A stretch of 59,518 nt of DNA, filler included, from Nitrospinae bacterium RIFCSPLOWO2_12_FULL_45_22 (GTDB lineage: Bacteria; 2-12-FULL-45-22): the NCBI GenBank assembly GCA_001803565.1. It is 6 parts of 6 records of this genome, joined end to end, with 100 filler letters (N's around TTAATTAATTAA, not from the genome) between each part and the next. Parts side by side here need not be neighbours in the genome. Positions count along the whole stretch, not along the records: positions 22,276 to 31,168 come from MHDQ01000087.1; 5 more parts are not named here. The stretch is one strand, 5' to 3'. The stretch's first letter is position 1. Every line of letters starts with the position of its first letter. The notes below the pieces were generated by a model. It did not search any database. It had not been told where the DNA came from and was given only the letters and a program-made list of their open reading frames with translations. The position numbers and the translations under genes are program-made. Shown here piece by piece: positions 11,265 to 31,268 of this stretch.

Positions 11265-13388
11265 TTGTGCAAGAAAGAAGGGATTGTAGTGAAGTGGAAA
11301 TGGGTTTTAGGAGTTGTTTCCGCCGCGATTGTGTTACTGGTTGTGGCAGTTTACGTGATCCTGTTAAGATACAATTATAATGGCCTCAAGCCGGAAATCA
11401 CACGAGCAGTCAAGGATGACACGGGGCGAGAGTTAACCTTAGGGGGTGACATAAGCCTCAAAATAGGCTTTACACCGGCGCTTGTTGTTGAGGATGTGAT
11501 CTTCCAGAACGCACCCTGGGGGTCGCAGCCCGAGCTGGCGAAGATCAAACGCTTCGAGATAAAAGTGAGGCTTTTCCCACTTCTTTATCGCCGAATCGAG
11601 GTCAAACGGTTGATCTTGATTGAGCCTAAGATCCTGTTTGAAACGGACATCTCAGGCAAGTCAAACCTCGCATTCGAAACTACGAAGAAACAAGACCTCA
11701 CTAAAGGAAAAGACGAGACGAAGGTCGGGGGCGATTGGAACCTGGCGGCACTCACTTTCAACGAACTGCAGATAGAGAAGGGCCGTATCACCTACATAGA
11801 TCATGGATTGAAAAAAACTTATGTAGCGACAGTGGGCACCCTCATGGCAACCGCTACAAGTAGCGAAAGTCCGACCAAGCTGAATCTAAAGGGAGCATAT
11901 AACGACGGACCTTTCGAAGTCAGGGGGAATTTGTGCCCCTTGACAGCCTTCATCAACCCTATCAAAGTTTGGCCGGTCAATCTTGCGGTCAAGACAGAGA
12001 GTGCCACCCTCACCCTTGATGGTACGGTTAAGGATCCACTGGCCCGGCATGGTATCGAATTAAATTTCACGCTGAAGGGTAAGGACTTGGCAAGCTTCAA
12101 ACAACTTTCCGGTGAGGCGTTACATCTCAAGGGACCATTCGATATCTCTGGTCGAATTGCTGATACTGCCCGTAATGCCTATTCGATTTCTAACCTCAAG
12201 ATCATGCAAGGCGAAAACGATCTCAGTGGGAGGGTTGAGTTGAATTTTGCTGAAAATCGGCCGAAGGTGACAGCAGTGCTATCGGCACAGAAATTGGACC
12301 TTCGACCCTATTTTCAGGTGGGTCCGAACATAGAGAAGGCGCCAAAGAATTCAAGCAAAAGGGCTGGAAAGGGAGACAAAATCTTTCCTGATCATCCTCT
12401 GCCCCTGGATACCCTAAGGCAGGCCGATGCAGATGTTAAGATCCAAGCTGCTCAAGTCCTGCTGCCGAATCTTCCTCTCAACGGCCTTGACATGGACACG
12501 GTCCTCAAGAATGGAGCGCTTACAGTGAAGCCCTTCAAGGCAGTTGTTGGAAAAGGTTCCATGGATGGCCACCTTTCTCTCCAATCTCAGGGGAAGGTTG
12601 CATCGCTGACAATCGTCTTGAAAATCAATAAGCTTGACATTAGCTATTTGACGAAAGAGCTTAAGAGTACCAAGGGCCTCGAAGGAAATCTTGATGTAGA
12701 CATTGACATCAGAGCCCGGGGTGCCTCAATAGCAGGATTCATGGGAGACCTTAATGGTAAGACGGTTTTGGTGATGGGCAAGGGAAGGGTCGTCAACAAG
12801 TATATCGACATACTCGGTGGTGATCTCAGCGCCAGTCTCTTTCGTCTCCTCAATCCATTTCGGGAGGAGAAGCCATACACTTCAATTAATTGCTTTGTCA
12901 GCGGTTTCAATATAAAAGATGGGGTAGCAAGCACGACTGCACTCGCATTGAACACGGATTACATGGTTGTGGTTGGCGAGGGCGAGATCAATCTGAAGAC
13001 AGAAAGACTTAACCTATCCCTCAAGCCTGTTCCGAAGGAAGGTATTGAGACCCGAGTTACGGGCAAGTTAAATGTAAGTTTAAGCGAGTTAACGAGACCT
13101 TTCAAACTGGGCGGCACGCTTGCTCATCCCTCACTCGCTGTTGATCCGACCCAAACTGCAATTGCCTTCGGCAAGGCGATTGAAGGAGTAGTGCTATTTG
13201 GGCCGATCGGTATTGCCGCAGCACTGGTTGGTAGCAGTTCGGGTGACGAAAACTCTTGCCTTGCAGCCATTGAGGCCGCAAATAAAGGGGTTAGGGTCAA
13301 CAAAGGCCTTGTTGGTAAGGTCACGGAGGGCGCCAAAGATGTCCTTAAGGGCGCCGGCAAGGAATTCAAGAAGCTGTTCGGCAAATAA
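11265..13388 (+). CDS. AsmA family protein
   Basis: N-terminal TM anchor, LKPEITRAVKDDTGRELTLGGDI, NAPWGSQP; C-terminal INCFV...GEINLKTERL...LGGTLAHP. Confidence 0.85.
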   Translation: MCKKEGIVVKWKWVLGVVSAAIVLLVVAVYVILLRYNYNGLKPEITRAVKDDTGRELTLGGDISLKIGFTPALVVEDVIFQNAPWGSQPELAKIKRFEIKVRLFPLLYRRIEVKRLILIEPKILFETDISGKSNLAFETTKKQDLTKGKDETKVGGDWNLAALTFNELQIEKGRITYIDHGLKKTYVATVGTLMATATSSESPTKLNLKGAYNDGPFEVRGNLCPLTAFINPIKVWPVNLAVKTESATLTLDGTVKDPLARHGIELNFTLKGKDLASFKQLSGEALHLKGPFDISGRIADTARNAYSISNLKIMQGENDLSGRVELNFAENRPKVTAVLSAQKLDLRPYFQVGPNIEKAPKNSSKRAGKGDKIFPDHPLPLDTLRQADADVKIQAAQVLLPNLPLNGLDMDTVLKNGALTVKPFKAVVGKGSMDGHLSLQSQGKVASLTIVLKINKLDISYLTKELKSTKGLEGNLDVDIDIRARGASIAGFMGDLNGKTVLVMGKGRVVNKYIDILGGDLSASLFRLLNPFREEKPYTSINCFVSGFNIKDGVASTTALALNTDYMVVVGEGEINLKTERLNLSLKPVPKEGIETRVTGKLNVSLSELTRPFKLGGTLAHPSLAVDPTQTAIAFGKAIEGVVLFGPIGIAAALVGSSSGDENSCLAAIEAANKGVRVNKGLVGKVTEGAKDVLKGAGKEFKKLFGK

Positions 13389-22275: not shown

Positions 22276-23119
22276 CGGTTGCCAGGTCCTTTCTTATATC
22301 GCTATTGGGTGCAGATTTTACCAGATAGCGATACACCCCATTACCAGCACAGCCCTGGCCTTCTACCTGCAATACCCCGTTGACCTTTTCCAGTTCCCTG
22401 GATACCCTCTCCGGGGGCCCTTCTATTTGTAAAGAGACCCGGTGGGATTTCTGTAACTGGGCGGTTAGATTCTCTGGGGTATCTACTGCTATTAACCTGC
22501 CTTCGTTAATAATAATTACCCTCTGGCAGACCATGCTTACCTCGGGCAGGATATGGGTGCTCAAAATAACCGTCCGCTGGCCCCCCAAACCTTTAATAAG
22601 ATTCCGAATCTCTATAATCTGCTTAGGGTCCAAACCTAATGTAGGCTCATCTAAGATCAAGACCTCTGGGTCACTCAGTAGGGCCTGGGCTATCCCAACC
22701 CGCTGCCTGTATCCCTTGGAGAGCTTCCCTATAAGCCGGTTACGAACCTCTGCTATGCCACAATCCCGGATGGTCTCTTCCACCCGGCGCTGCCGTTCCC
22801 TCCTCTTGATGCCCTTTATCTCGGCGACAAAAAAGAGATAGCTAGTAACCGTCATATCGTTATAAAGGGGTACATTTTCCGGGAGATAGCCTATCCGGCG
22901 GCGGACCTCCAGGGGGTGTTTATAAATATCATAACCCGCTACCCGTACCTGACCACTGGTAGGGGGGATGAAGCACGTAAGGATTCTCATAGTAGTAGTC
23001 TTACCAGCACCATTGGGCCCCAGGAAGCCAAGTATTTCCCCTCTTTCTACCTGGAAGGAGATATCCTTTACTGCCGGTAATAGGCCATAATACTTGGTCA
23101 ATCCCTCTACTTCTATCAT
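22276..23119 (-). CDS. ABC-2 type transporter ATP-binding protein (GldA-like), 3' truncated
   Basis: GPNGAGKTT, LSKGYRQRVG, ILDEPT, STHIL. Confidence 0.92.
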
Positions 23120-23323
23120 GGAACCTATTCCTCCTCCTTATCCCGTGCTTTTATCTTCCCCCGGGCCTTTTCTGCCTCCTCACCTATGAGATTAACCTCC
23201 CCTAAAATGGGGCAATAGATTTGCAAAAAATTTATCGGTTGTTTGCTGGCGCTTGAGGGCATAACCTTTTTCTCTCTAACAATCCTGGCAGTACAGTCCA
23301 TATTATCTTACTCCTTCAAATCA

Positions 23324-23632
23324 TTACCTGCCCGTAATATCTTTCTTTTTCTTAGCCTTTTTGGGTTCCTGGGTCACCTTTTCCAGCTTTAATTTACCCT
23401 GAACAATCTCTTTACAGGCTATTTCTGTTAGCGATAATGACCGAGACTCCTCAATATCTACCAAGGGCTTAGCCCCTCTATTCAATTGTTGAACCCTATC
23501 GGAAATAATCCTTACCAATAAATATCTATTAGGGATAATCCTTAAGGCTTCTGATAGATATAAGCCGTCATCCATCCAGGCTTTCCCCCCGTAAAATTCT
23601 CTTTCCATATCTATTAAAATAAGCTCCCCCAT
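23324..23632 (-). CDS. rpoZ: RNA polymerase omega subunit-like protein (true start may be Met at 23575)
   Basis: IPNRYLLV.....RVQQLNRGAKPLV.......EIACKEI..GK matches the omega pattern. Confidence 0.7.
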   Translation of the reverse strand: MGELILIDMEREFYGGKAWMDDGLYLSEALRIIPNRYLLVRIISDRVQQLNRGAKPLVDIEESRSLSLTEIACKEIVQGKLKLEKVTQEPKKAKKKKDITGR

Positions 23633-23838
23633 CCTTATCCCATCCTTGTAGAATTACAATAACTGACCAAATATAACAAAACATAAGGTAATCAATTTAT
23701 AAGCTAAAATCCTTTTTGTCAACTTCCCTTTCCCCCATTTCTCCCCCCGGCATTCCCCAAAAGTAACCGTTCAGCCCCTCACACCTCACTTCTCACTCCT
23801 TACGATGTACGTATCTTTGTGTCCTCTGCGTTCTCGGC

Positions 23839-23890
23839 GGTGAAATTTTGAAAAGGATGATACTTGGTTGTAGAAATTTTTGGGAAAACT
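23839..23890 (+). repeat. 52-bp dispersed repeat, copy 2
   Basis: 50/52 identical to 20984-21035. Confidence 0.85.
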
Positions 23891-24008
23891 ACAGGCAGTT
23901 TCATAAGGCTTGACACTATATGTAAGTACGCTTTAAAATAGTTGATAATCTCTTGGTTAGAGTTTTCCACTGCCCCAAAAGGGTTCCCAGGAAGGGAAAA
24001 ATAAAATC

Positions 24009-24974
24009 ATGAATGAAAGGACTTATATTCTAATCCCCCTCTTTTTTTGTCTATTTTATTCAGCCTGTTACAAATCCAACTTAAAGATATACCCCTTGAA
24101 AGTAAAACCCTCTATTCACCGCAACGAGGTAAAAATGACCGTTAACTCTCTAGGAAAGGCAAAAGAATGGCTGCAAATCAATTTGACTATTAACAATACT
24201 AGTCCTTATAACCTGGAGTTAAAGACCCATAATGTTCTTTTAACTCATGGTGGTGGTAGGATTCTTTGGCCCCTGGACCAGGGAGAATTAATAATGAAGA
24301 TTAGTCAAGAGGCCCACCAATACTCTTCTCTGGCGGTAATACCAATGGTTGGCTCTTTAGTAGCCATCCAGCAGCTTATAGTAAATAATAGGGTCAGAGA
24401 CGATTCAGACGATATCATTAATACCTCACTTAAGGATATTGATATCCCACCCCGGATGACTATCAGAGGGAATGTTTATTTCCCGGCGGTAGAGAATGTA
24501 GAAGAGATCATCGTCTACCTGAAAAGAGAAAATAACCTCATTAAATTCCAGGTCCCTATAACCCAGACCCGTTCTAGCAAGCTGCCCGGAGGTAAACGCT
24601 TGCCTGAAGCAGAGATTTTATATCAGAAGGCCTTTACCCAGTATAAAGCAGCTTTATACCAGAAGGCTGTCCAGCAATTTAGTATGTTCTTAAAGAATTT
24701 CCCTCAGCATGATCTGGCCGATAATGCTCAATATTGGGTAGGAGAAAGCTATTATTCTCTAGGATTATTTCCGGAAGCTATATCTGCTTTTCAGAAAGTA
24801 ATAACCTATTATCCTAAGAGGAATAAGGCCCCTGATGCCTTATTGAAAATAGGCCTGTGTCGTCTAGTCACCAAAGATAAAGAGAAAGCCCGGACAACTT
24901 TACAGAAATTGTTGACCGAATACCCATCCACTAATGCAGCTTACTTAGCCCGAATGAAATTAGGGGAAATTTAA
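24009..24974 (+). CDS. Probable lipoprotein with a C-terminal CpoB/YbgF-like TPR domain
   Basis: Lipobox-like YSAC; FLKNFPQHDLADNAQYWVGESYY...KAPDALLKIG...EYPST. Confidence 0.75.
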   Translation: MNERTYILIPLFFCLFYSACYKSNLKIYPLKVKPSIHRNEVKMTVNSLGKAKEWLQINLTINNTSPYNLELKTHNVLLTHGGGRILWPLDQGELIMKISQEAHQYSSLAVIPMVGSLVAIQQLIVNNRVRDDSDDIINTSLKDIDIPPRMTIRGNVYFPAVENVEEIIVYLKRENNLIKFQVPITQTRSSKLPGGKRLPEAEILYQKAFTQYKAALYQKAVQQFSMFLKNFPQHDLADNAQYWVGESYYSLGLFPEAISAFQKVITYYPKRNKAPDALLKIGLCRLVTKDKEKARTTLQKLLTEYPSTNAAYLARMKLGEI

Positions 24975-25061
24975 TTTATATAATAAAATATACCCCGTCT
25001 CAGGGATGTATCGGCACCTATAGTTAATAAACCCCGAAGAGAGCCGTAGTGCTGAAAGAGG

Positions 25062-26150
25062 ATGGTAAATATGAAAAAGACTATAAAACTCGAACTGGAA
25101 ATGCTTTACACTCAACTAAAGATTTATTCTGGAGTAATTGATATTCTGGTATCTTCTTTGCACCTGGACTTTTTAGCCCGAAGGGTCTTGGAAAAGATAC
25201 TAGAGATATTACCCTTTAACGCCGGGGCCTTACACCTCTATAATCCAGAGGAGAATCTTTTAGAATTAAAGACTCATATAGGTGTTTCCGAGGAGTTTAT
25301 AAAAAAGGCTGAGCGAATAATTGTTGGGGAGGGTATTACAGGCCGTACTGCCCTATATAGAAGATCTATTATGTTAAGCGGTCAAGAAATAGATCCGCGT
25401 GCCCAACCTGATAACACCTTTCCCCCACCATCAAATATGCGCCCTATAATAAGCCTCCCAATTGTCCCTAAAATAGATACTATCCAACTACCTATAAGGA
25501 TAAAAGACGAACTTATTGGGGTTTTGACCTTTTTCCCCAATCCTGATCAAGATATAAAAGAGATGGTTTTTAAGACCCTCGATTCCTTATGTAACCCTCT
25601 GGCCTTGGGTTTTAAGAATGCTATGCTCTACGAAGAAGCAGAGCAGATGGCTACTAAAGATGGGTTAACTCGCTTGTATAATCACTCTTATTTGCAAGGC
25701 TTCCTGGAAATGGAATTGGTTCGAGGAAAGCGTTACCACAGACCATTAACTTTTGCGATGCTGGACATTGATAATTTCAAACAGATCAACGATACTTACG
25801 GCCATCAGGAAGGAGACCTGATACTGAAAGAACTAGCCGATATATTGCGTAATTTCACCCGGGCAAGTGATTTGGTGGCCCGGTATGGTGGAGAAGAATT
25901 CGCCGTTGTTCTCCCAGAGACCCTTGCGCCTCAGGCTTATATTTTAACTGAACGTTTACGGCAGCAAATAGCAGGGTATTCTTTTTCTGGTGCGGATCAT
26001 CCGCTAAAAATTACTACTAGCTGCGGGATCGCTGATTGGGAACCCCATTATCCTTTAGATCAACAAGGATTAATTGCTAGAGCAGACCAGGCACTATATC
26101 AAGCTAAGTCCCAGGGGCGGAATAAAACCTGTCTCTGGGAAAAAGATTAG
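25062..26150 (+). CDS. GAF-GGDEF diguanylate cyclase
   Basis: GEGITGRTA GAF segment; DGLTRLYN, DIDNFK.IND.YGH, RASD I-site, RYGGEEF. Confidence 0.92.
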   Translation: MVNMKKTIKLELEMLYTQLKIYSGVIDILVSSLHLDFLARRVLEKILEILPFNAGALHLYNPEENLLELKTHIGVSEEFIKKAERIIVGEGITGRTALYRRSIMLSGQEIDPRAQPDNTFPPPSNMRPIISLPIVPKIDTIQLPIRIKDELIGVLTFFPNPDQDIKEMVFKTLDSLCNPLALGFKNAMLYEEAEQMATKDGLTRLYNHSYLQGFLEMELVRGKRYHRPLTFAMLDIDNFKQINDTYGHQEGDLILKELADILRNFTRASDLVARYGGEEFAVVLPETLAPQAYILTERLRQQIAGYSFSGADHPLKITTSCGIADWEPHYPLDQQGLIARADQALYQAKSQGRNKTCLWEKD

Positions 26151-26407
26151 CCCCTGCCAAAAAAGCCCAAAAAATCTAAGGTGACAGCTTCAATTTACAT
26201 TCCGCACCCTTCCGAGAAGGCCAGAAATAATTTGTAGTGGGTTGAAAAAGGGGACACGAATTACACGAATAGACTAATGGCACGAATGAAGAAAAAAAAA
26301 CCAGCAAAGCAAGCTTTGCCACTACATAATGCTATGGCAGTGCTAGTTTATTAATATCTGTAGTGGTCGAGCTTGCTCGACACCCCCTTTTCTTCAGTAA
26401 CAACTAA

Positions 26408-27511
26408 TTAATCAAACAATCTTTTAGTAACATAGAGGTAGGGTTTTAAAAATTTCCACAACAGGATAGACCCCGCCTCCCGAAGAAATAACTGTAAATA
26501 GCTGGTCCCCCCTAAGCAACTCTGACAATAAGGGTGGATAACCCGAAAACGTTGAAACCCTTTGAGGATAGAAATGAGATCAGGGGAATTTAGGATATTA
26601 GGGAGCTCTTGATGACATAAATTACCTACTGCAGTGTGGCCATCAAAATCTCGACAACAAAGGACTAGATCGCCATTCCATAAGATGCTAAAATGATCGG
26701 CTATAGCAGGACAATAGCCAAACCTGGCTCTCTTGATAGGCTTTTGGATTAAGGTATTACCCCAATTATCCAGGATATAAGTCTCCAGAAAAATGCGGGG
26801 ATAGACTTCTAGGACATTCCATTTACGCAGAGAGACCCTTTTTATCCTTTCTAAGACCCTTTCTTCTCTGATACGGTTCTGAGCCCCTTCCAAACCATAC
26901 AGTTTCTTCGTCCATTGGGCCAAGGCACTATGCAAGTCAGGTATCTGTGTTGCGACCCCTCCCTGATCCAAGGGAGTAACTAGTAACCTTCTGTCTTTAG
27001 AGTTTAGTAAGTGGAGCTTGATGGTAGTTTCGCCTTTGTTCTGGATAAGCAAAGAGATAAAGTTAAGAATATTCTGAAAGTATTCCTCAGCGGTTAGCCT
27101 CCCCGCTTGCCTCAGAGCAAAGCTATCTTCATCAGGCGTTTGGAGAGAAATATTTATTTGATCGAGCTCTAAGGCCAACAATCTATCTATATTCTCCTCA
27201 GTAAATAGACTACCATTAGTAGTCAGTCCTACTTTGCACCTCATATCCCTGGCATAGGCTATAATCTGAAATACCTGGGGGTGGAGCATTGGTTCCCCCA
27301 TTACATGAAAAGTGATCTTTTCGGCTATATCCATCTCTTTTAAATCCGTAATGACCTTTTTGGCCAATTCCAGAGTCATATAGCCCTTTTCCCGGGTCAT
27401 TAAAGAGCTAGGGCAAAAGGTGCACCGGAAATTGCAAATATTTGTTAGTTCCATATGGACCCGGGAAATAGGGAAGGATACATATTTCTTAATAATATCA
27501 ACCTTACTCAT
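26408..27511 (-). CDS. Radical SAM protein with SPASM/twitch domain
   Basis: CNFRCTFC, MGEPMLHP, TTNG, C-terminal C...GDLVLCCRD...GNL...CQSC. Confidence 0.88.
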   Translation of the reverse strand: MSKVDIIKKYVSFPISRVHMELTNICNFRCTFCPSSLMTREKGYMTLELAKKVITDLKEMDIAEKITFHVMGEPMLHPQVFQIIAYARDMRCKVGLTTNGSLFTEENIDRLLALELDQINISLQTPDEDSFALRQAGRLTAEEYFQNILNFISLLIQNKGETTIKLHLLNSKDRRLLVTPLDQGGVATQIPDLHSALAQWTKKLYGLEGAQNRIREERVLERIKRVSLRKWNVLEVYPRIFLETYILDNWGNTLIQKPIKRARFGYCPAIADHFSILWNGDLVLCCRDFDGHTAVGNLCHQELPNILNSPDLISILKGFQRFRVIHPYCQSCLGGTSYLQLFLREAGSILLWKFLKPYLYVTKRLFD

Positions 27512-27583
27512 AGCTACCCTTTTTGTAAATCCTGGTGTCAGTGTCAGAAACTAAAAACTGACACTGAGACCAATAACCGATAT

Positions 27584-28123
27584 TTATACTCCAGGCCTGC
27601 TATATTGCTTTAGAGACCTCATAAAATTCTTTATAAAATCAATCTCTATCCCCACTGTTAACCGGATGTGTTCTGATATAGCTATCAGATAATAGGGTCT
27701 GGCCTCCTGCCGTAGGGATTTTTCTAGCTGATGTGCCCAGAGCCTAACCCGCCTCAAGCTTACTAGCCTCTCCCGGATCATTTTTAAGACGTCCACAGGT
27801 TCTAAAAATTTCAAGAAATAGAGAGACAGGTCTAGATTATGGAAGGGCCGCTGTAGGGTCAAAAAATTTCTATGAAGCAGATTGCGAAATTCTTGTCTCC
27901 CCTTTTTTGTTATCTGATATACATATCTTTCCGGCCTGCGGCCATGCTGACCCACGGTTTTGGTTACTAAGCTCCTCGATTCTAAATTTTTCAAGGCATA
28001 ATAGATAGGACCGGAAGATAGCTCCATAAACCTACCCATGTCTTCCTCTATTAGCTTCTTCATCTCATAGCCATGTTTAGGGCCATCACAAAGTAAGCCT
28101 AGAAGGACAATATCCTGGATCAT
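27584..28123 (-). CDS. PadR family transcriptional regulator
   Basis: LLGLL..GPKHGYEM...IYYALKNLE...YQITKKG. Confidence 0.9.
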   Translation of the reverse strand: MIQDIVLLGLLCDGPKHGYEMKKLIEEDMGRFMELSSGPIYYALKNLESRSLVTKTVGQHGRRPERYVYQITKKGRQEFRNLLHRNFLTLQRPFHNLDLSLYFLKFLEPVDVLKMIRERLVSLRRVRLWAHQLEKSLRQEARPYYLIAISEHIRLTVGIEIDFIKNFMRSLKQYSRPGV

Positions 28124-28255
28124 TCCCGCCCCCCAGTCTATCTTAGTGAGCAGTAAGCAAGTTAGCGGTTAACTCCTCACTACTTACCCCCGTGTGAGTT
28201 CAAGGTAGGTTAAAGGTCTTAACAAGAAATGGAAGGATATCCAAGGTCAAGTAAT

Positions 28256-29017
28256 TTACCGGGCCAATCCCCCTCCATCAACATAAATAGAATGGCCGGT
28301 AATAAAATTAGCGGCATCGGACGCCAGAAAGACCACGGCACCAGCGATTTCTTCCGGCTCAGCAATCCGGCCATAGGGTATGTTTCCGGCTACCATCTTA
28401 TAGATATCAGGATTGCTCCAGAGGGGTTTACTAAACTCCGTCCGGGTCAACCCCGGCCCCACACAATTCACATTGATCTTAAATGAGGCCCATTCTACTG
28501 CCATACACATAGAGAGCATTTTCAAGCCCGCCTTGCTGGCATGATAAGGGCCCATATTGATGCCGGCCCGCTCTGCTCCGCCAGTAGTAATATTTATGAT
28601 CCGGCCACCTCCCTGCTCCTTCATTATCTTAGCTGCTTCACGGCTGAGAAGGAATACGGCCTTAAGATTAGTATTAAAGATCTTATCCCACCCCTCTTCT
28701 TTAAAATCAAACAGAGGGCGCATATAACTTAACCCGGCATTATTCACTAATATATCTATCCGCTTAAACTCCTCCATGGTCTTTTGCACTAGGTTACTAA
28801 GTTCCTCTTTGACAGTTATATCGGTTTTTATGGCCAGTGCCTTCCGCCCCTTTTGTTGGATATCTTGAGCTACTTTTTCTAACTCTTCTGGGGTCCGACT
28901 GCAAACCACCACGTTTGCCCCCGCCTCACCTAAAGCCAGGGCAATAGCCTTACCAATACCCTTCCCACCACCGGTTACGATGGCTACTTTGCCGCTGAGT
29001 AAAAGATGGCTGCTCAT
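28256..29017 (-). CDS. Short-chain dehydrogenase/reductase
   Basis: TGGGKGIG, ILVNNAG, YHASK, VDGG; AGGAGGA RBS before ATG 29017. Confidence 0.92.
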   Translation of the reverse strand: MSSHLLLSGKVAIVTGGGKGIGKAIALALGEAGANVVVCSRTPEELEKVAQDIQQKGRKALAIKTDITVKEELSNLVQKTMEEFKRIDILVNNAGLSYMRPLFDFKEEGWDKIFNTNLKAVFLLSREAAKIMKEQGGGRIINITTGGAERAGINMGPYHASKAGLKMLSMCMAVEWASFKINVNCVGPGLTRTEFSKPLWSNPDIYKMVAGNIPYGRIAEPEEIAGAVVFLASDAANFITGHSIYVDGGGLAR

Positions 29018-29149
29018 ATCATCCTCCTTATAAATAATTCTGCCTATAAACACTGTTCAAACAAAATTGCCGCTAAAATTACCATATACAAATTACCAAG
29101 GACAATCCTCCCGGTCAAGCAAATTTAATAGCACCCATCAGTAATCATT

Positions 29150-29277
29150 TACCGCAGAGGAGCAGAGACCCAGAGAAAACTATACTTACGTGATTCGTGT
29201 CCGTAAGAATAAAAGGAAATCCGCTAAATGATCATGGTATTAGACTCTTCTCTGGGCCTCTGCGTCTGCGGTGAAAA
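29150..29277. repeat. Inverted pair of ACCGCAGA-type REP-like repeats
   Basis: ACCGCAGAGGAGCAGAGACCCAGAGAA vs TTCTCTGGGCCTCTGCGTCTGCGGT. Confidence 0.6.
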
Positions 29278-29331
29278 CTTGCAATAAAGTATATGGTTGT
29301 ATTGAGTGGCGTCTTTTGCTATAAAATTCTG

Positions 29332-29391
29332 TAGCCGCATCACATCCCGTACTTCGTCTAACAGTTTCCTTTTCTTTTTGGGTATTGACAT
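29332..29391 (-). pseudogene. N-terminal stub of an integron integrase
   Basis: MSIPKKKRKLLDEVRDVMRL resembles the IntI start (KLLD.VR...R....YS); similarity then stops; divergent from the cassette-like genes and attC. Confidence 0.5.
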
Positions 29392-29522
29392 ATTTTTTTC
29401 GCTTTGATACATATGGCATGAAAGTAGTATGATAATGGCCTAGAGAAAATTTGCCTGAAAAGATACCTAATATCATTATCCCAAGGCAAATTTTCTTGTC
29501 AATAAATGTTCCATTGCCCAAA

Positions 29523-30152
29523 ATGGGCAAGATACTTGGAGGAAGGTTTCTGTTTCTCCGCGTAAATTTACTACTGACGGCCTTGCTGGTGTGTTGCACA
29601 ACCTACCAGGGTTTAGCTCAGGAACTTCAGAGCGTTGATGGGTGGATGGTGGTAGACTCCAGAGGCAATCGCGTAGGTCGCGTGCTCGGAGTATCCAATC
29701 CCGATAACGCGGTAATAGGCTTTGAATCAGACGGTCGCGTCTTTCAGATCAACGTGTGGCCCGGCGGGTTCCGGTTTGGAGGTGGGGTCCTATTCACGTC
29801 GCCGAACTGCCAGGGGCAGCCCTATGTGCCGGTTTCGAAACCTCCGCTCTTCATGGCCTTTGGTATAATTGCTACTCCCGGACACACAGTCTGGGTCGGT
29901 CAGTTGGAAGTTCCACCCCAGACAATCACGGTCGTATCGGTGTTGAACGACACCTGTCAGGCGTCGACCTTCAGTACGTGGGCCTTGCCGGCTATCCCGG
30001 TCGTCAATTTAGATGAACTATTCCTGCCTCCTTTCAAGCTCGCCACCGACACCACGACAGGAGTGCCAGACCATGCGCATACATATCTCACCGGAAAAGG
30101 AGAGGGGCACAACAATGTCACTGCTACAACCGGAGGCATGATTCGTCGCTGA
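29523..30152 (+). CDS. Secreted hypothetical protein (possible gene cassette)
   Basis: Signal-peptide-like NLLLTALLVCC...GLAQ; visibly more GC/CpG-rich than flanks; HAH...GHNN tail. Confidence 0.6.
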   Translation: MGKILGGRFLFLRVNLLLTALLVCCTTYQGLAQELQSVDGWMVVDSRGNRVGRVLGVSNPDNAVIGFESDGRVFQINVWPGGFRFGGGVLFTSPNCQGQPYVPVSKPPLFMAFGIIATPGHTVWVGQLEVPPQTITVVSVLNDTCQASTFSTWALPAIPVVNLDELFLPPFKLATDTTTGVPDHAHTYLTGKGEGHNNVTATTGGMIRR

Positions 30153-30197
30153 AGTCGATCTGCCTCCTCCTAAGAAAACTGGCTCTGCTAAAGGAGT

Positions 30198-30551
30198 GGG
30201 GTCACCCAGTATCTGACTACTGACGCGGTGTTCAGCACCTTGCAAGATGTCGCTTCGTCCTCTGCCCCTGGCAGTGAAATCGTCTTCCAGATTATCCTGC
30301 CCCCATCGATCTTGAGTGCAGAGGACCAGGCAGTGGTGGCCGTGGCCTCCCAGCTTGCAGCACAGCGATGAGAGCCCTGGCGGAGTTTTTTCGAGCCTAA
30401 AGCCCTTGAGGCGCGGCTCAGAGCAATGGGCTTTACCCAGGTCTTCCACTTTGAGCCAGCAGAAGCCTCAAGCCGGTATTTTCAGGGACGGACGGATGGG
30501 CTCCAGTTACCGAATTACTTTGAACTCATCACAGCTAAGGTTGGTGTGTAA
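30198..30551 (+). pseudogene. C-terminal half of a class I SAM-dependent methyltransferase (LCM-like) with an in-frame stop
   Basis: GVTQYLT...APGSEIVF...AAQR*EPWRSFFEP...MGF...RYFQGRTDGL; TGA at 30369-30371 where Gly (RGEPW) is expected; not in the ORF track. Confidence 0.7.
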
Positions 30552-30634
30552 AGGTTCGCTAGAGCTGACTTCCTATTGTTGGGAAAGTACGGGGGAGCAA
30601 CAATGAAGCGTTACCCACCAAGCGGGACTCCGCC

Positions 30635-30728
30635 ACCTAACTCACTGTTCCACCTGACCGCCGCCCGCTTGCGGTTTGGGATGAATCCGAAAGGCCACGG
30701 TGGGGCGGCGGCAGGTGATCGGCAGCGT
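30635..30728 (+). other. Integron attC site, interrupted within R'
   Basis: R'' ACCTAAC, left arm TCCACCTGACCGCCGCCC, right arm GGGCGGCGGCAGGTGA, then CAGCGT broken where GTTRRRY should continue. Confidence 0.75.
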
Positions 30729-31168
30729 GTGTGCCGGGCATGGCACAGGACTGGCGAGGTGAAAGTCCTCGTACCAGGTATTATCGGAGCCGAAGGTTAG
30801 GAGAAGGGCAAGGGCGTCATCGTGAGGTGGGGTCTGGAGGAAGTCCAATCCAAAAGTGCGGGGCGACGAACAGGAACCGGATAGGAGGTGTGGTACATCC
30901 GGGACGAGTGGGCACGTGACCACGAAGTCCTCCATCCGTGATTTGGGTGTGCTTTATAAATCCGGCGTTTACGCACTGAAAGCTCCGTGTCTTACCCCGG
31001 GAGGCCTGTACAGTGTCTTAACAGAAGGTATGGCTGAGATATTGTGGCACCGCCGGGAAACCAGGTGGAAACGGAGAAGACAAAGTTCAGCCTGGAGCCA
31101 CAGTGATAGACTGAGGCACGAGCAATCGTGTCTGATCGCTGTGCAGGAGTCAGCAGAGGGCATATTAG
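30729..31168 (+). mobile_element. Group IIC intron 5' part (domains I-II and start of III), truncated by the contig end
   Basis: 5' GTGTGCCGGGCATGG, GAGGTGAAAGTCCTC, GCAAGGGCGTC...TCTGGAGGAAG, GACGAACAGGAAC, CTTACCCCGGGAGGCCTG, CAGGAGTCAGCAGAGGGCATA: colinear with IIC landmarks. Confidence 0.88.
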
Positions 31169-31268
31169 NNNNNNNNNNNNNNNNNNNNNNNNNNNNNNNN
31201 NNNNNNNNNNNNTTAATTAATTAANNNNNNNNNNNNNNNNNNNNNNNNNNNNNNNNNNNNNNNNNNNN
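31169..31268. other. Artificial contig linker
   Basis: N-TTAATTAATTAA-N. Confidence 0.98.

What the first reader, a model, noticed from the sequence alone, without database searches (positions are those of the whole stretch)
30635..31168. Group IIC intron inserted into the top strand of an attC site
Seen: the attC hairpin ends ...GGCAGCGT and the intron GTGTG begins at 30729, splitting R' as GT/TRRRY. The unpaired C and A in the left arm (TCCACCTGAC vs GCAGGTGA) and the orientation of upstream genes indicate that plus is the top strand, so the intron is co-oriented with the cassettes. Established (from memory): IIC introns target DNA stem-loops, and described IIC-attC introns insert into the bottom strand, antisense to cassettes. 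Inference: a different attC-targeting mode that disrupts the recombination crossover site in DNA yet can splice out of the cassette transcript.
Basis: partly seen in the sequence, partly recalled or inferred. Interest (0 to 1): 0.74.

Follow-up and report, generated by a model that had tools for sequence, protein, structure and literature searches.

The report
Top-strand attC group IIC intron
This is the first 440 bases of a self-splicing mobile intron sitting inside an integron recombination site in the same direction as the neighbouring genes, an arrangement that is real here but has been reported before in close relatives.

Summary
A group II intron starts at 30729 (GTGTG; Rfam RF02001, 125 bits) and is cut at 31168 by a contig end. 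It follows a hairpin with full attC anatomy: R'' ACCTAAC, a 5/6-nt unpaired spacer, and two extra bases (C, A) on the 5' arm six bases apart, as in attC-aadA1. Only GT of R' is left.

Three other metagenome contigs hold the same attC uninterrupted, reading ...GGCAGC-GTTAGCC or GTTATAC. One is a three-attC cassette array with plus-strand ORFs, so plus is the top strand.

The intron is about 80% identical to introns in class 1 integrons (pR148, pKC-Na-R1, pPp47). These run in the sense of the cassettes and split R' as GT|TAGAT. Of 118 genomic relatives, 113 sit after CGT. In 38 of 39 copies with both ends, the 3' exon starts with T.

The novelty claim fails. Top-strand, sense insertions were reported for E. 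cloacae (2012) and for this same pKC-Na-R1 intron (2022). This copy is a new, truncated environmental member of a known kind.

The survey suggests this is a large lineage, a mirror image of the bottom-strand IIC-attC lineage. An EBS1 loop change (ACGU versus ACAA) tracks the strand.

The parts
29523..30152 (+). 209-aa ORF with a signal-peptide-like N-terminus and no Pfam family. It lies in the G+C-rich segment upstream of the attC.
   Evidence: the G+C shift is
30198..30551 (+). Degenerate reading frame running towards the attC, with an in-frame TGA at 30369-30371. It looks like a cassette-ORF remnant.
   Evidence: Its only Pfam match is weak: Methyltransf_23, E 0.12.
30635..30641 (+). attC R'' box ACCTAAC, which fits RYYYAAC
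   Evidence: geometry compared with attC-aadA1 in L001
30642..30646 (+). 5' half of the unpaired central spacer (TCACT, 5 nt)
   Evidence: attC-aadA1 has the same 5/6-nt spacer lengths.
30647..30666 (+). 5' arm: GTT, extra base C30650, CACCTG, extra base A30657, then CCGCCGCCC
   Evidence: attC-aadA1 has the same spacing of the two extra bases (C, 6 nt, A).
30667..30702 (+). Variable terminal loop of the attC
   Evidence: variable among the four homologous attCs
30703..30720 (+). 3' arm: GGGCGGCGG, CAGGTG, ATC
   Evidence: identical in L003, L004 and L006
30721..30726 (+). 3' half of the unpaired central spacer (GGCAGC, 6 nt)
30725..30728 (+). IBS1 (GCGT). Its last two bases, GT, are all that remains of R' on the 5' side of the intron.
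   Evidence: Of 118 relatives, 113 have CGT at this place. Uninterrupted homologues read GCGTTAGCC or GCGTTATAC.
30729..31168 (+). 5' 440 nt of a group IIC-type intron (domain I to the base of domain IV), cut by the contig end
30816..30990 (+). Match to Rfam RF02001 (group II intron D1-D4-3), full model
30908..30923 (+). Hairpin GTGG-GCACGTGA-CCAC. ACGT at 30914-30917 is the proposed EBS1, pairing with IBS1 GCGT.
   Evidence: Rfam marks it as a terminal loop. The loop changes with the 5' exon across lineages.
31018..31100 (+). Stretch of about 83 nt that is absent from the pR148 and pPp47 introns but shared with L037
   Evidence: coordinates derived from the alignment columns
31169..31268 (.). 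N-TTAATTAATTAA-N linker marking a contig boundary, not biology

Best explanation
This is the 5' portion of a mobile group IIC-type intron that reverse-spliced into the top (cassette-sense) strand of an integron attC site, between the second and third bases of the R' core (GT|T...).

Mechanism. When the top strand is single-stranded it folds into the attC hairpin. The intron ribonucleoprotein uses that stem-loop as its upstream landmark, as IIC introns do. It reads the four bases before the insertion point (IBS1 GCGT, 30725-30728) with a hairpin-loop sequence in domain I (EBS1 ACGU, 30914-30917). It reads the next base (IBS3 T) with EBS3, then reverse-splices in. The intron-encoded RT, which lacks an endonuclease in relatives, copies the intron using a replication-fork primer.

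Strand choice. The top strand reads ...GCGT|T at R', whereas the bottom strand reads ...TTGT|T at R''. The EBS1 loop (ACGU here, ACAA or CAA in bottom-strand relatives) therefore tracks which strand is hit.

Consequences. In DNA the insertion moves TRRRY about 1.8 kb or more away from GT, so the R box can no longer form and the site should be dead for IntI recombination. The intron lies in the sense of the upstream genes, so read-through transcripts can carry it. That should allow both splicing and expression of its own RT.

Shown: the intron identity, the attC anatomy, the strand, the insertion point in relatives, and the loop-exon correspondence. Inferred: the 3' junction of this copy, splicing, loss of recombination, and the replication-linked pathway.
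For: 1. Intron. Rfam RF02001 at 125 bits with a GTGTG start. It is 80% identical over 275 nt, and alignable over all 440 nt, to plasmid introns that carry ltrA. It is 84-92% identical to genomic copies.

2. attC and strand. The site has R'' ACCTAAC, a 5/6-nt spacer, and extra bases C and A on the 5' arm six bases apart, the geometry of attC-aadA1 in L001. The 3' arm recurs exactly in L003, L006 and L004, where it continues GTTAGCC, GTTAGCC and GTTATAC. L006 is an array of three attCs with plus-strand ORFs. One ORF's stop codon lies inside R'', and a RibD_C gene follows.

3. Insertion point. In pR148, pKC-Na-R1 and pPp47 the intron is co-oriented with aadA1 or aac(6')-Ib and qacEdelta1-sul1. 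The junctions read ...GCGT|intron|TAGAT and ...ACGT|intron|TAGAT.

4. Survey of 119 genomic copies.
- The 5' exon ends in CGT in 113 of the 118 copies with at least 3 nt of flank.
- Position -4 is G or A in 101 of 116.
- The 3' exon starts with T in 38 of 39 copies with both flanks, two of which are the plasmid copies: TA 31, TG 6.
- A plus-strand ORF of at least 60 aa ends just upstream, and is longer than any minus-strand ORF starting there, in 73 of 99 loci. The opposite holds in 17, and neither in 9.
- Integron-integrase-like genes (36-50% identity to IntI1) lie within the held 8 kb of 5 survey loci.

5. EBS1.
- Loop GCACGTGA: 37 top-strand copies, plus one with GTACGTGA. Exons end in (G/A/T/C)CGT.
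- Loop GCACAAGA: 3 bottom-strand copies. Exons end in TTGT.
- Loop GCCAATGA: 3 bottom-strand copies. Exons end in TTTG or CTTG.

6. The RT of a close full-length relative (L012) has RVT_1 and GIIM domains and no endonuclease domain.

7. A tree of the first 290 nt puts the window copy inside the 69-member top-strand group, sister to L037 (support 0.89). The six bottom-strand copies form a separate group (0.998).
Against: - The 3' junction of this copy is not in the window and was not recovered from public runs. GT|TRRRY is therefore by analogy.
- No second attC and no integrase are seen on the 8.9-kb contig or anywhere in the window. This attC is solitary as far as can be seen.
- The upstream 'cassette' is a degenerate frame with an in-frame stop.
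- The attC lies in a G+C-rich 1.7-kb tail (about 57%) of a contig that is otherwise about 42% G+C. The contig could be chimeric, or the tail could be foreign DNA.
- The intron family is a high-copy repeat in the source-type metagenomes. Summed contig depth is 100-1600 over the intron against about 4 for the exon. The 440 nt beyond the junction may therefore blend copies.
- Logan contigs that cross the junction carry only 20-22 nt of intron, below the tool's 31-nt rule for bridging.
- The strict RYYYAAC motif was found upstream of only 34 of 110 relatives, although shuffles give about 10 and the reverse complement gives 5.
- Support for the top-strand group as one clade is only 0.67, from 290 nt and a single outgroup. 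The members were picked by a sequence pattern.
- One terminator-type relative (L095) has a loop that does not match its exon.
Confidence: 0.85

Rival explanations
1. It is a canonical IIC-attC intron. On this reading plus is the bottom (recombinogenic) strand of the attC, and the intron is antisense to the cassettes, as published for S.ma.I2.
For: attC sites are imperfect palindromes, so both strands read RYYYAAC...GTTRRRY. The minus strand folds slightly better than the plus strand. The published lineage does insert after the GT of a GTT core (PMC7923331).
Against: - The exon ends GCGT, not TTGT.
- The two extra bases lie on the arm far from the intron. Bottom-strand insertions have them on the near arm, by the geometry of attC-aadA1.
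- Homologous attCs sit in arrays whose ORFs read on the intron's strand.
- Close relatives are in the sense of known resistance cassettes.
- Genuine bottom-strand copies found in the same loci have a different 5' end (GTACG...), a different EBS1 loop, and form a separate clade.
Confidence: 0.03
2. The hairpin is not an attC but an ordinary terminator-like or repeat stem-loop of the kind most IIC introns use. The R''-like heptamer is chance.
For: Most IIC introns sit after terminators (PMC4424553). Three relatives in the survey do so (L076, L095, L114). No integrase or second attC is in the window. Folding energy is unremarkable.
Against: - No T-run follows the stem.
- R'', the spacer lengths and the two extra bases match attC geometry.
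- The same element recurs in a three-attC cassette array and continues as GTTAGCC.
- 113 of 118 relatives share the CGT|T context.
Confidence: 0.06
3. The exon-intron junction is an assembly artefact. On this reading a high-copy intron sequence was joined to an unrelated attC-bearing contig end.
For: Intron depth is 25 to 400 times the exon depth, and assemblies break inside the intron. The contig also shows a sharp G+C shift upstream.
Against: Two Logan assemblies from different studies (X1 groundwater, X2 soil) run from the attC into the first 20-22 nt of the intron with no mismatch (table 8). The junction has exactly the CGT|GTGTG form seen in 113 other loci.
Confidence: 0.05

Closest known systems
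Sense-oriented intron in attC-aadA1 of class 1 integrons on IncC-type plasmids (pR148, pKC-Na-R1 and six further records with the same match statistics)
   Same: It is 80% identical over the first 275 nt. It has the same 5' GTGTG-YCGGGCATG start and the same EBS1 loop GCACGTGA. It has the same insertion point, after CGT of the top-strand R', and the same orientation relative to upstream genes.
   Different: It is complete (1838 nt, with a 444-aa RT) and sits in a clinical resistance integron that has intI1. The window copy is truncated, environmental, carries an extra stretch of about 83 nt, and sits in a solitary attC with no integrase in view.
[quoted passage not shown]
   Same: [quoted passage not shown]
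   Different: The paper itself is not held and I have no sequence of it. Whether it is the pR148-type intron, and what its authors surveyed, is unknown to me.
Group IIC-attC lineage (S.ma.I2, E.c.I7, Kl.pn.I1)
   Same: It is the same ribozyme type and also uses the attC hairpin as landmark. It inserts after the GT of a GTT core with IBS3 T. The presumed members found here are about 72% identical to the window copy over 128 nt of domain I.
   Different: It inserts in the bottom strand at R'' (TTGT/T), antisense to the cassettes (PMC3001079, PMC7923331). The bottom-strand copies found here start GTACG, carry the EBS1 loop GCACAAGA or GCCAATGA, and form a separate clade. That these six copies belong to the named lineage is inferred from their features. 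No named sequence was compared.
Terminator-targeting group IIC introns
   Same: They insert just after a DNA stem-loop, use a short IBS1, and have an RT without an endonuclease. Three survey copies (L076, L095, L114) and L125 sit after G+C-rich hairpins followed by T-runs.
   Different: Their landmark is an intrinsic terminator rather than an attC. In the tree they form the sister group of the top-strand attC group (support 0.86 for the pair).

Membership tests
Group II intron | 5' boundary GUGYG | tested here: met
   GTGTG at 30729-30733
Group II intron | Domain I-IV ribozyme fold | tested here: met
   Rfam RF02001, full model, 125 bits against a gathering score of 32
Group II intron | Domain V/VI and 3' boundary AY | not testable with these tools
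   The contig ends at intron nt 440, and no other piece is in the window. Relatives end ...CCCGAT.
Group II intron | Intron-encoded RT/maturase in domain IV | not testable with these tools
   This part is cut off. The relative L012 has RVT_1 and GIIM. By their length, 15 of 44 relatives with both ends are too short (704-1505 nt) to hold an RT.
Class C (IIC) | Insertion directly downstream of a DNA stem-loop | tested here: met
   The stem ends at 30720 and the insertion is after 30728. The same holds in the relatives.
Class C (IIC) | Short EBS1-IBS1 (3-4 bp) and no EBS2-IBS2 | tested here: inconclusive
   The EBS1 loop tracks the exon across three lineages. Absence of EBS2 was not tested.
Class C (IIC) | RT lacking the endonuclease domain and grouping with class C RTs | not testable with these tools
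   There is no RT in the window. The relative's RT has no endonuclease domain. No phylogeny with named class C RTs was made.
Integron attC site | R'' RYYYAAC and R' GTTRRRY as inverted cores | tested here: inconclusive
   R'' ACCTAAC is present, but only GT of R' is visible. Uninterrupted homologues have GTTAGCC or GTTATAC, whose last positions depart from RRRY.
Integron attC site | Unpaired central spacer and two extra-helical bases on the R''-L'' arm | tested here: met
   The spacer is 5/6 nt. C30650 and A30657 are six bases apart, as in attC-aadA1.
Integron attC site | Lies at the 3' end of a cassette in an array, or next to intI | tested here: not met
   There is no other attC-like pair near it, no IntI-like frame in the window, and the upstream frame is degenerate. 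Homologous attCs do lie in an array (L006).
Integron attC site | Recombined by an integron integrase | not testable with these tools
   This needs an experiment.
IIC-attC lineage as published (S.ma.I2 type) | Inserted in the bottom strand, antisense to cassettes, at TTGT/T of R'' | tested here: not met
   The window copy is in the top strand at GCGT|, in the sense orientation. The definition comes from PMC3001079 and PMC7923331.
IIC-attC lineage as published (S.ma.I2 type) | RT monophyletic with S.ma.I2 | not testable with these tools
   There is no RT in the window and no named S.ma.I2 sequence in hand.

The most novel reading that the evidence does not exclude
The published rule 'IIC-attC introns insert in the bottom strand, antisense' may describe only one of two mirror-image lineages. 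The other lineage, to which this copy belongs, would be a large and widespread group specialised for the top strand of attC (CGT|T in R').

- It was found in at least 113 loci of species-representative genomes, in records labelled Gammaproteobacteria, Nitrospirales and Nitrospira, Nitrospinota, NC10, Deltaproteobacteria and Desulfobacteraceae, Sedimentisphaerales, Victivallales, Chitinivibrionales and Peptococcaceae.
- Strand choice would be set largely by two bases of the EBS1 loop (ACGU versus ACAA).
- The two lineages can occupy the same attC back to back.
- The top-strand lineage may be favoured in chromosomal integrons, because these usually put the top strand on the lagging-strand template.
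Probability: 0.4. Interest if true: 0.55.

Novelty: new member of a known kind. Interest (0 to 1): 0.36.

Why it matters
For this window it matters little. It is one more truncated copy of a mobile intron at a contig end, and it explains why the assembly broke there.

More broadly, an intron in the sense strand of an attC differs from the textbook antisense case in what it should do:
- It can be transcribed from upstream promoters.
- It can splice out of the cassette transcript.
- In DNA it splits the R box that the integrase needs, so it may freeze the neighbouring cassette junction.

If the top-strand group is as large as the survey suggests, integron annotation tools and accounts of intron-integron interplay that assume antisense insertion will miss or misread many sites. 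The EBS1-to-strand correspondence also gives a simple, testable rule for how a IIC intron picks a strand of a palindromic target.

Tried and rejected
- Whole-genome search of the window's own assembly: none is held.
- First EBS1 guess (ACGC at 30971-30974). I rejected it because Rfam's structure puts those bases inside a helix, and bottom-strand copies show no complementary change there. The hairpin loop at 30912-30919 replaced it.
- R''-to-R' complementarity as an attC test. It did not discriminate. Best scores were mostly 5 of 7, the same as in shuffled flanks.
- Strict RYYYAAC upstream of relatives: found in only 34 of 110, so it is used only as weak support.
- Recovering the 3' part of this copy. 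BLAST of four full-length relatives and two RTs against the window found nothing beyond 30729-31168.
- Laying the contigs of four public runs. This gave no piece spanning the stretch, no listed loose end at 30728 showing an empty site, and junction pieces with only 20-22 nt of intron.
- Pfam on the 209-aa ORF and on the degenerate frame: nothing usable. My recollection that the frame resembles a particular methyltransferase family was not borne out.
- Looking for named bottom-strand introns (S.ma.I2 type) among plasmid hits. H12, H20, H29 and H69 are introns outside integrons.
- Equating the pPp47 intron with Kl.pn.I3. I dropped this, because only one plasmid record holds the pPp47 intron and no paper read states Kl.pn.I3's orientation.
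- Papers not held: PMC3256610, PMC6148190, PMC2714756 and PMC2747902.
Figure S2 of PMC9229058 and the supplements of PMC7923331 may show further sense-oriented cases.
- Two full-text searches for group II intron with attC, one adding 'top strand' and one 'same orientation', plus one for 'unusual target of integration' with 'group IIC' and attC. They turned up only the two mentions cited.

Full report
**What is in the window.** The window is a chain of contigs joined by N-TTAATTAATTAA-N linkers. The finding lies at the right end of contig 22276-31168. This contig is metagenome contig L005, 8893 bp. At 30729 the sequence turns into a group II intron. It starts GTGTG, and Rfam family RF02001 (group II D1-D4-3) matches 30816-30990 over the whole model at 125 bits, the only gathering-level Rfam hit in the window. 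The contig ends 440 nt into the intron. No further piece of the intron and no RT frame is elsewhere in the window. No whole genome is held for the window.

**Why the contig ends there.** I laid the contigs of four public runs on 30200-31168. Summed contig depth is about 4 over the exon and 100-1600 over the intron. Assemblies break a few bases into the intron, so the family is a high-copy repeat in these groundwater and soil communities. Contigs from two different studies run from the attC into the first 20-22 nt of the intron without mismatch. That is less than the tool's 31-nt rule for bridging.

**The site is an attC, and plus is its top strand.** Reading 5' to 3' on the plus strand, the parts are:

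| Part | Sequence | Coordinates |
|---|---|---|
| R'' | ACCTAAC | 30635-30641 |
| 5' spacer | TCACT | 30642-30646 |
| 5' arm | GTT, extra C, CACCTG, extra A, CCGCCGCCC | 30647-30666 (extra bases at 30650 and 30657) |
| Loop | 36 nt | 30667-30702 |
| 3' arm | GGGCGGCGG, CAGGTG, ATC | 30703-30720 |
| 3' spacer | GGCAGC | 30721-30726 |
| Remnant of R' | GT | 30727-30728 |

attC-aadA1 in plasmid pR148 has the same layout on its cassette-sense strand: a 5-nt and a 6-nt spacer, and an extra C then an extra A six bases apart on the 5' arm.

Folding energy alone is unremarkable. The plus strand gives z -1.38 and the minus strand z -2.40. The stronger evidence is homology. An exact 22-nt match of the 3' arm occurs in three other metagenome contigs. 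There it continues as an intact R': GTTAGCC in L003 and L006, and GTTATAC in L004. L003 and L006 carry the same cassette, so they count as one observation.

L006 is a cassette array. It has an attC ending ...GAAGCGTTAGGC, then a two-gene cassette (the first a DUF4258 protein) whose last stop codon lies inside R'', then the homologous attC, then a RibD_C gene followed by GCCTAAC. All of these read on the plus strand.

In the window itself the context is poorer. Upstream lie a 209-aa ORF without a Pfam family and a degenerate frame with an in-frame TGA, both on the plus strand. There is no second attC-like pair nearby and no integrase-like frame anywhere in the window. The attC also lies in a 1.7-kb tail of about 57% G+C on a contig that is otherwise about 42% G+C.

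**Relatives with both junctions visible.** The 440 nt match plasmid introns at about 80% identity over the first 275 nt and align over their whole length apart from an extra stretch of about 83 nt. In pR148 and pKC-Na-R1 the intron lies between aadA1 and qacEdelta1-sul1. In pPp47 it lies after aac(6')-Ib4. In all three, ltrA is on the cassette strand. The junctions read ...CAAGCGT|GTGTG...CCCGAT|TAGAT and ...CAAACGT|GTGTG...CCCGAT|TAGAT.

**Survey of homologues.** These hold 119 copies and 115 distinct junctions.

- **5' exon.** It ends CGT in 113 of the 118 copies with at least 3 nt of flank. The four-base endings were GCGT 73, ACGT 28, TCGT 8 and CCGT 2, out of 116.
- **Exceptions.** Three copies sit after G+C-rich hairpins with T-runs (L076, L095, L114). 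One ends ATGT (L021) and one CAT (L079).
- **3' exon.** I located 3' ends for 44 copies, including the two plasmid copies. Of the 39 with both flanks, 38 have a 3' exon starting with T: TA 31, TG 6.
- **Upstream ORFs.** In 73 of 99 loci, a plus-strand ORF of at least 60 aa ends 20-170 nt upstream and is longer than any minus-strand ORF starting there. The opposite holds in 17 and neither in 9. This is a crude proxy.
- **Integrases.** Five survey loci have an IntI-like gene (36-50% identity to IntI1) within the 8 kb held.
- **Weak or failed tests.** Strict RYYYAAC upstream was found in only 34 of 110 copies, against about 10 in shuffles and 5 on the reverse complement. A test of R''-R' complementarity did not discriminate.

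**The bottom-strand lineage appears in the same loci.** BLAST of domain I against all held loci found six copies of a related intron, about 72% identical over 128 nt. They start GTACGCCC and sit after ...TTGT...TTTG or ...CTTG. That matches the published description of IIC-attC introns: bottom strand, R'', TTGT/T (PMC7923331 and PMC3001079, passages read). I had no named sequence to compare. In five of the six, the same attC also carries a top-strand copy on the other strand, 44-77 nt away. The two introns therefore flank the hairpin back to back.

A FastTree of the first 290 nt (79 unique sequences, one terminator-type outgroup) gave these groups:

| Group | Copies | Support |
|---|---|---|
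| Bottom-strand copies | 6 | 0.998 |
| Terminator-type copies | 3 | 0.967 |
| Top-strand copies | 69 | 0.67 |
| Window copy with L037 | 2 | 0.89 |

The window copy lies within a set of MAG copies labelled NC10, Deltaproteobacteria and Desulfobacteraceae, Sedimentisphaerales and Chitinivibrionales. The members were chosen by a sequence pattern, so this tree is a rough guide only.

**How the strand is probably chosen.** Rfam's structure puts GCACGUGA (30912-30919) in a terminal hairpin loop.

| Lineage | Loop | 5' exon ending | Copies |
|---|---|---|---|
| Top strand | GCACGTGA (one copy GTACGTGA) | (G/A/T/C)CGT | 38 |
| Bottom strand | GCACAAGA | TTGT | 3 |
| Bottom strand | GCCAATGA | TTTG or CTTG | 3 |

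ACGU pairs with (G/A)CGU, ACAA with UUGU, and CAA with UUG. This is the EBS1-IBS1 relation expected for IIC introns. Position -4 is G or A in 101 of 116 top-strand-type exons, which is compatible with the U of ACGU. One terminator-type copy (L095) does not fit. An earlier guess for EBS1 (30971-30974) was discarded.

The asymmetry of attC flanks (top ...GCGTT, bottom ...TTGTT) together with a two-base difference in EBS1 gives a simple account of strand choice. This is an inference from covariation, not an experiment.

**Consequences, all inferred.**
- The insertion leaves only GT next to the L box. The R box, which integron integrases bind and cleave one base upstream of the insertion point (established knowledge), can no longer form.
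- The intron is in the sense of upstream transcription, so it can be expressed and spliced. The antisense S.ma.I2, by contrast, is reported as not transcribed in its host (PMC3001079).
- The RT of a close relative lacks an endonuclease domain. Integration should therefore depend on replication forks (PMC4424553).
- Most sedentary chromosomal integrons (25 of 30) place attC bottom strands on the leading-strand template (PMC5371416). That leaves top strands on the lagging-strand template, where single-stranded DNA is available. This could favour a top-strand lineage in chromosomal arrays.

**Novelty.** The mode is not new. PMC7923331 cites a top-strand, same-orientation IIC intron in an E. cloacae integron. 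The original paper is not held. PMC9229058 remarks that the intron of S. algae KC-Na-R1 lies in the same orientation as the cassettes. That is the pR148-type intron, the window copy's 80% relative. Full-text searches found no systematic description of a top-strand lineage. However, key papers are outside the library (Quiroga and Centron 2009; Leon and Roy 2009; Rodriguez-Martinez 2012), and supplements are closed.

**Verdict.** The copy is a new, truncated member of a known kind.

Noticed in passing
L073, L079, L092, L116, L118: The same attC is occupied twice. A bottom-strand-type intron (5' GTACG, after TTGT or TTTG) sits at the R'' side, and a top-strand-type intron (after CGT) sits at the R' side. 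They point away from each other with 44-77 nt of attC between them.
   Followed up: partly
L044/L122, L070, L073, L086, L106, L085, L026, L089, L098, L061, L062 and others: Of the 44 copies with both ends located, 15 are only 704-1505 nt long. That is too short for the roughly 1.3-kb RT frame, so they are likely ORF-less or internally deleted derivatives that keep both ribozyme ends.
   Followed up: no
L037:225-2854: The window copy's nearest relative is 2630 nt long. Between its IIC 5' and 3' parts it holds a second group II intron of another type (Rfam RF02005 plus RF00029, with its own 440-aa RT). This is a twintron-like nesting.
   Followed up: partly
L004:1-250: The 3' end of a different group II intron (RT C-terminus and a domain V-like hairpin) runs on the top strand straight into the 5' arm of the homologous attC. 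This would be a third way of sitting in this attC family. Its exact boundary is not settled.
   Followed up: no
L003:1024-2283: An IS110-family transposase gene lies about 230 nt downstream of the homologous attC. The literature describes IS1111/IS110 relatives that target attC sites (PMC3001079).
   Followed up: no
window 29440-29600: G+C jumps from about 39% to about 57% next to a perfect 13-nt inverted repeat at 29444-29456 / 29484-29496. By their lengths, Logan contigs from two studies would begin at about 29460-29480. The contig may be chimeric, or the G+C-rich tail may be foreign DNA.
   Followed up: partly
window 30541-30557 / 30605-30621: A 17-nt inverted repeat (82% complementary) lies between the end of the degenerate frame and the attC. 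Its folding is not better than shuffles.
   Followed up: partly
window 30369-30371: An in-frame TGA lies in an otherwise open 117-codon frame that runs into the attC. It is either a pseudogene or a recoded stop. The only Pfam match is weak.
   Followed up: partly
window 13007-13073: This is the only other RYYYAAC...GTTRRRY pair in the window with a single mismatch between the cores (ACTTAAC / GTTAAAT, 67 nt). It lies on another contig and was not examined.
   Followed up: no
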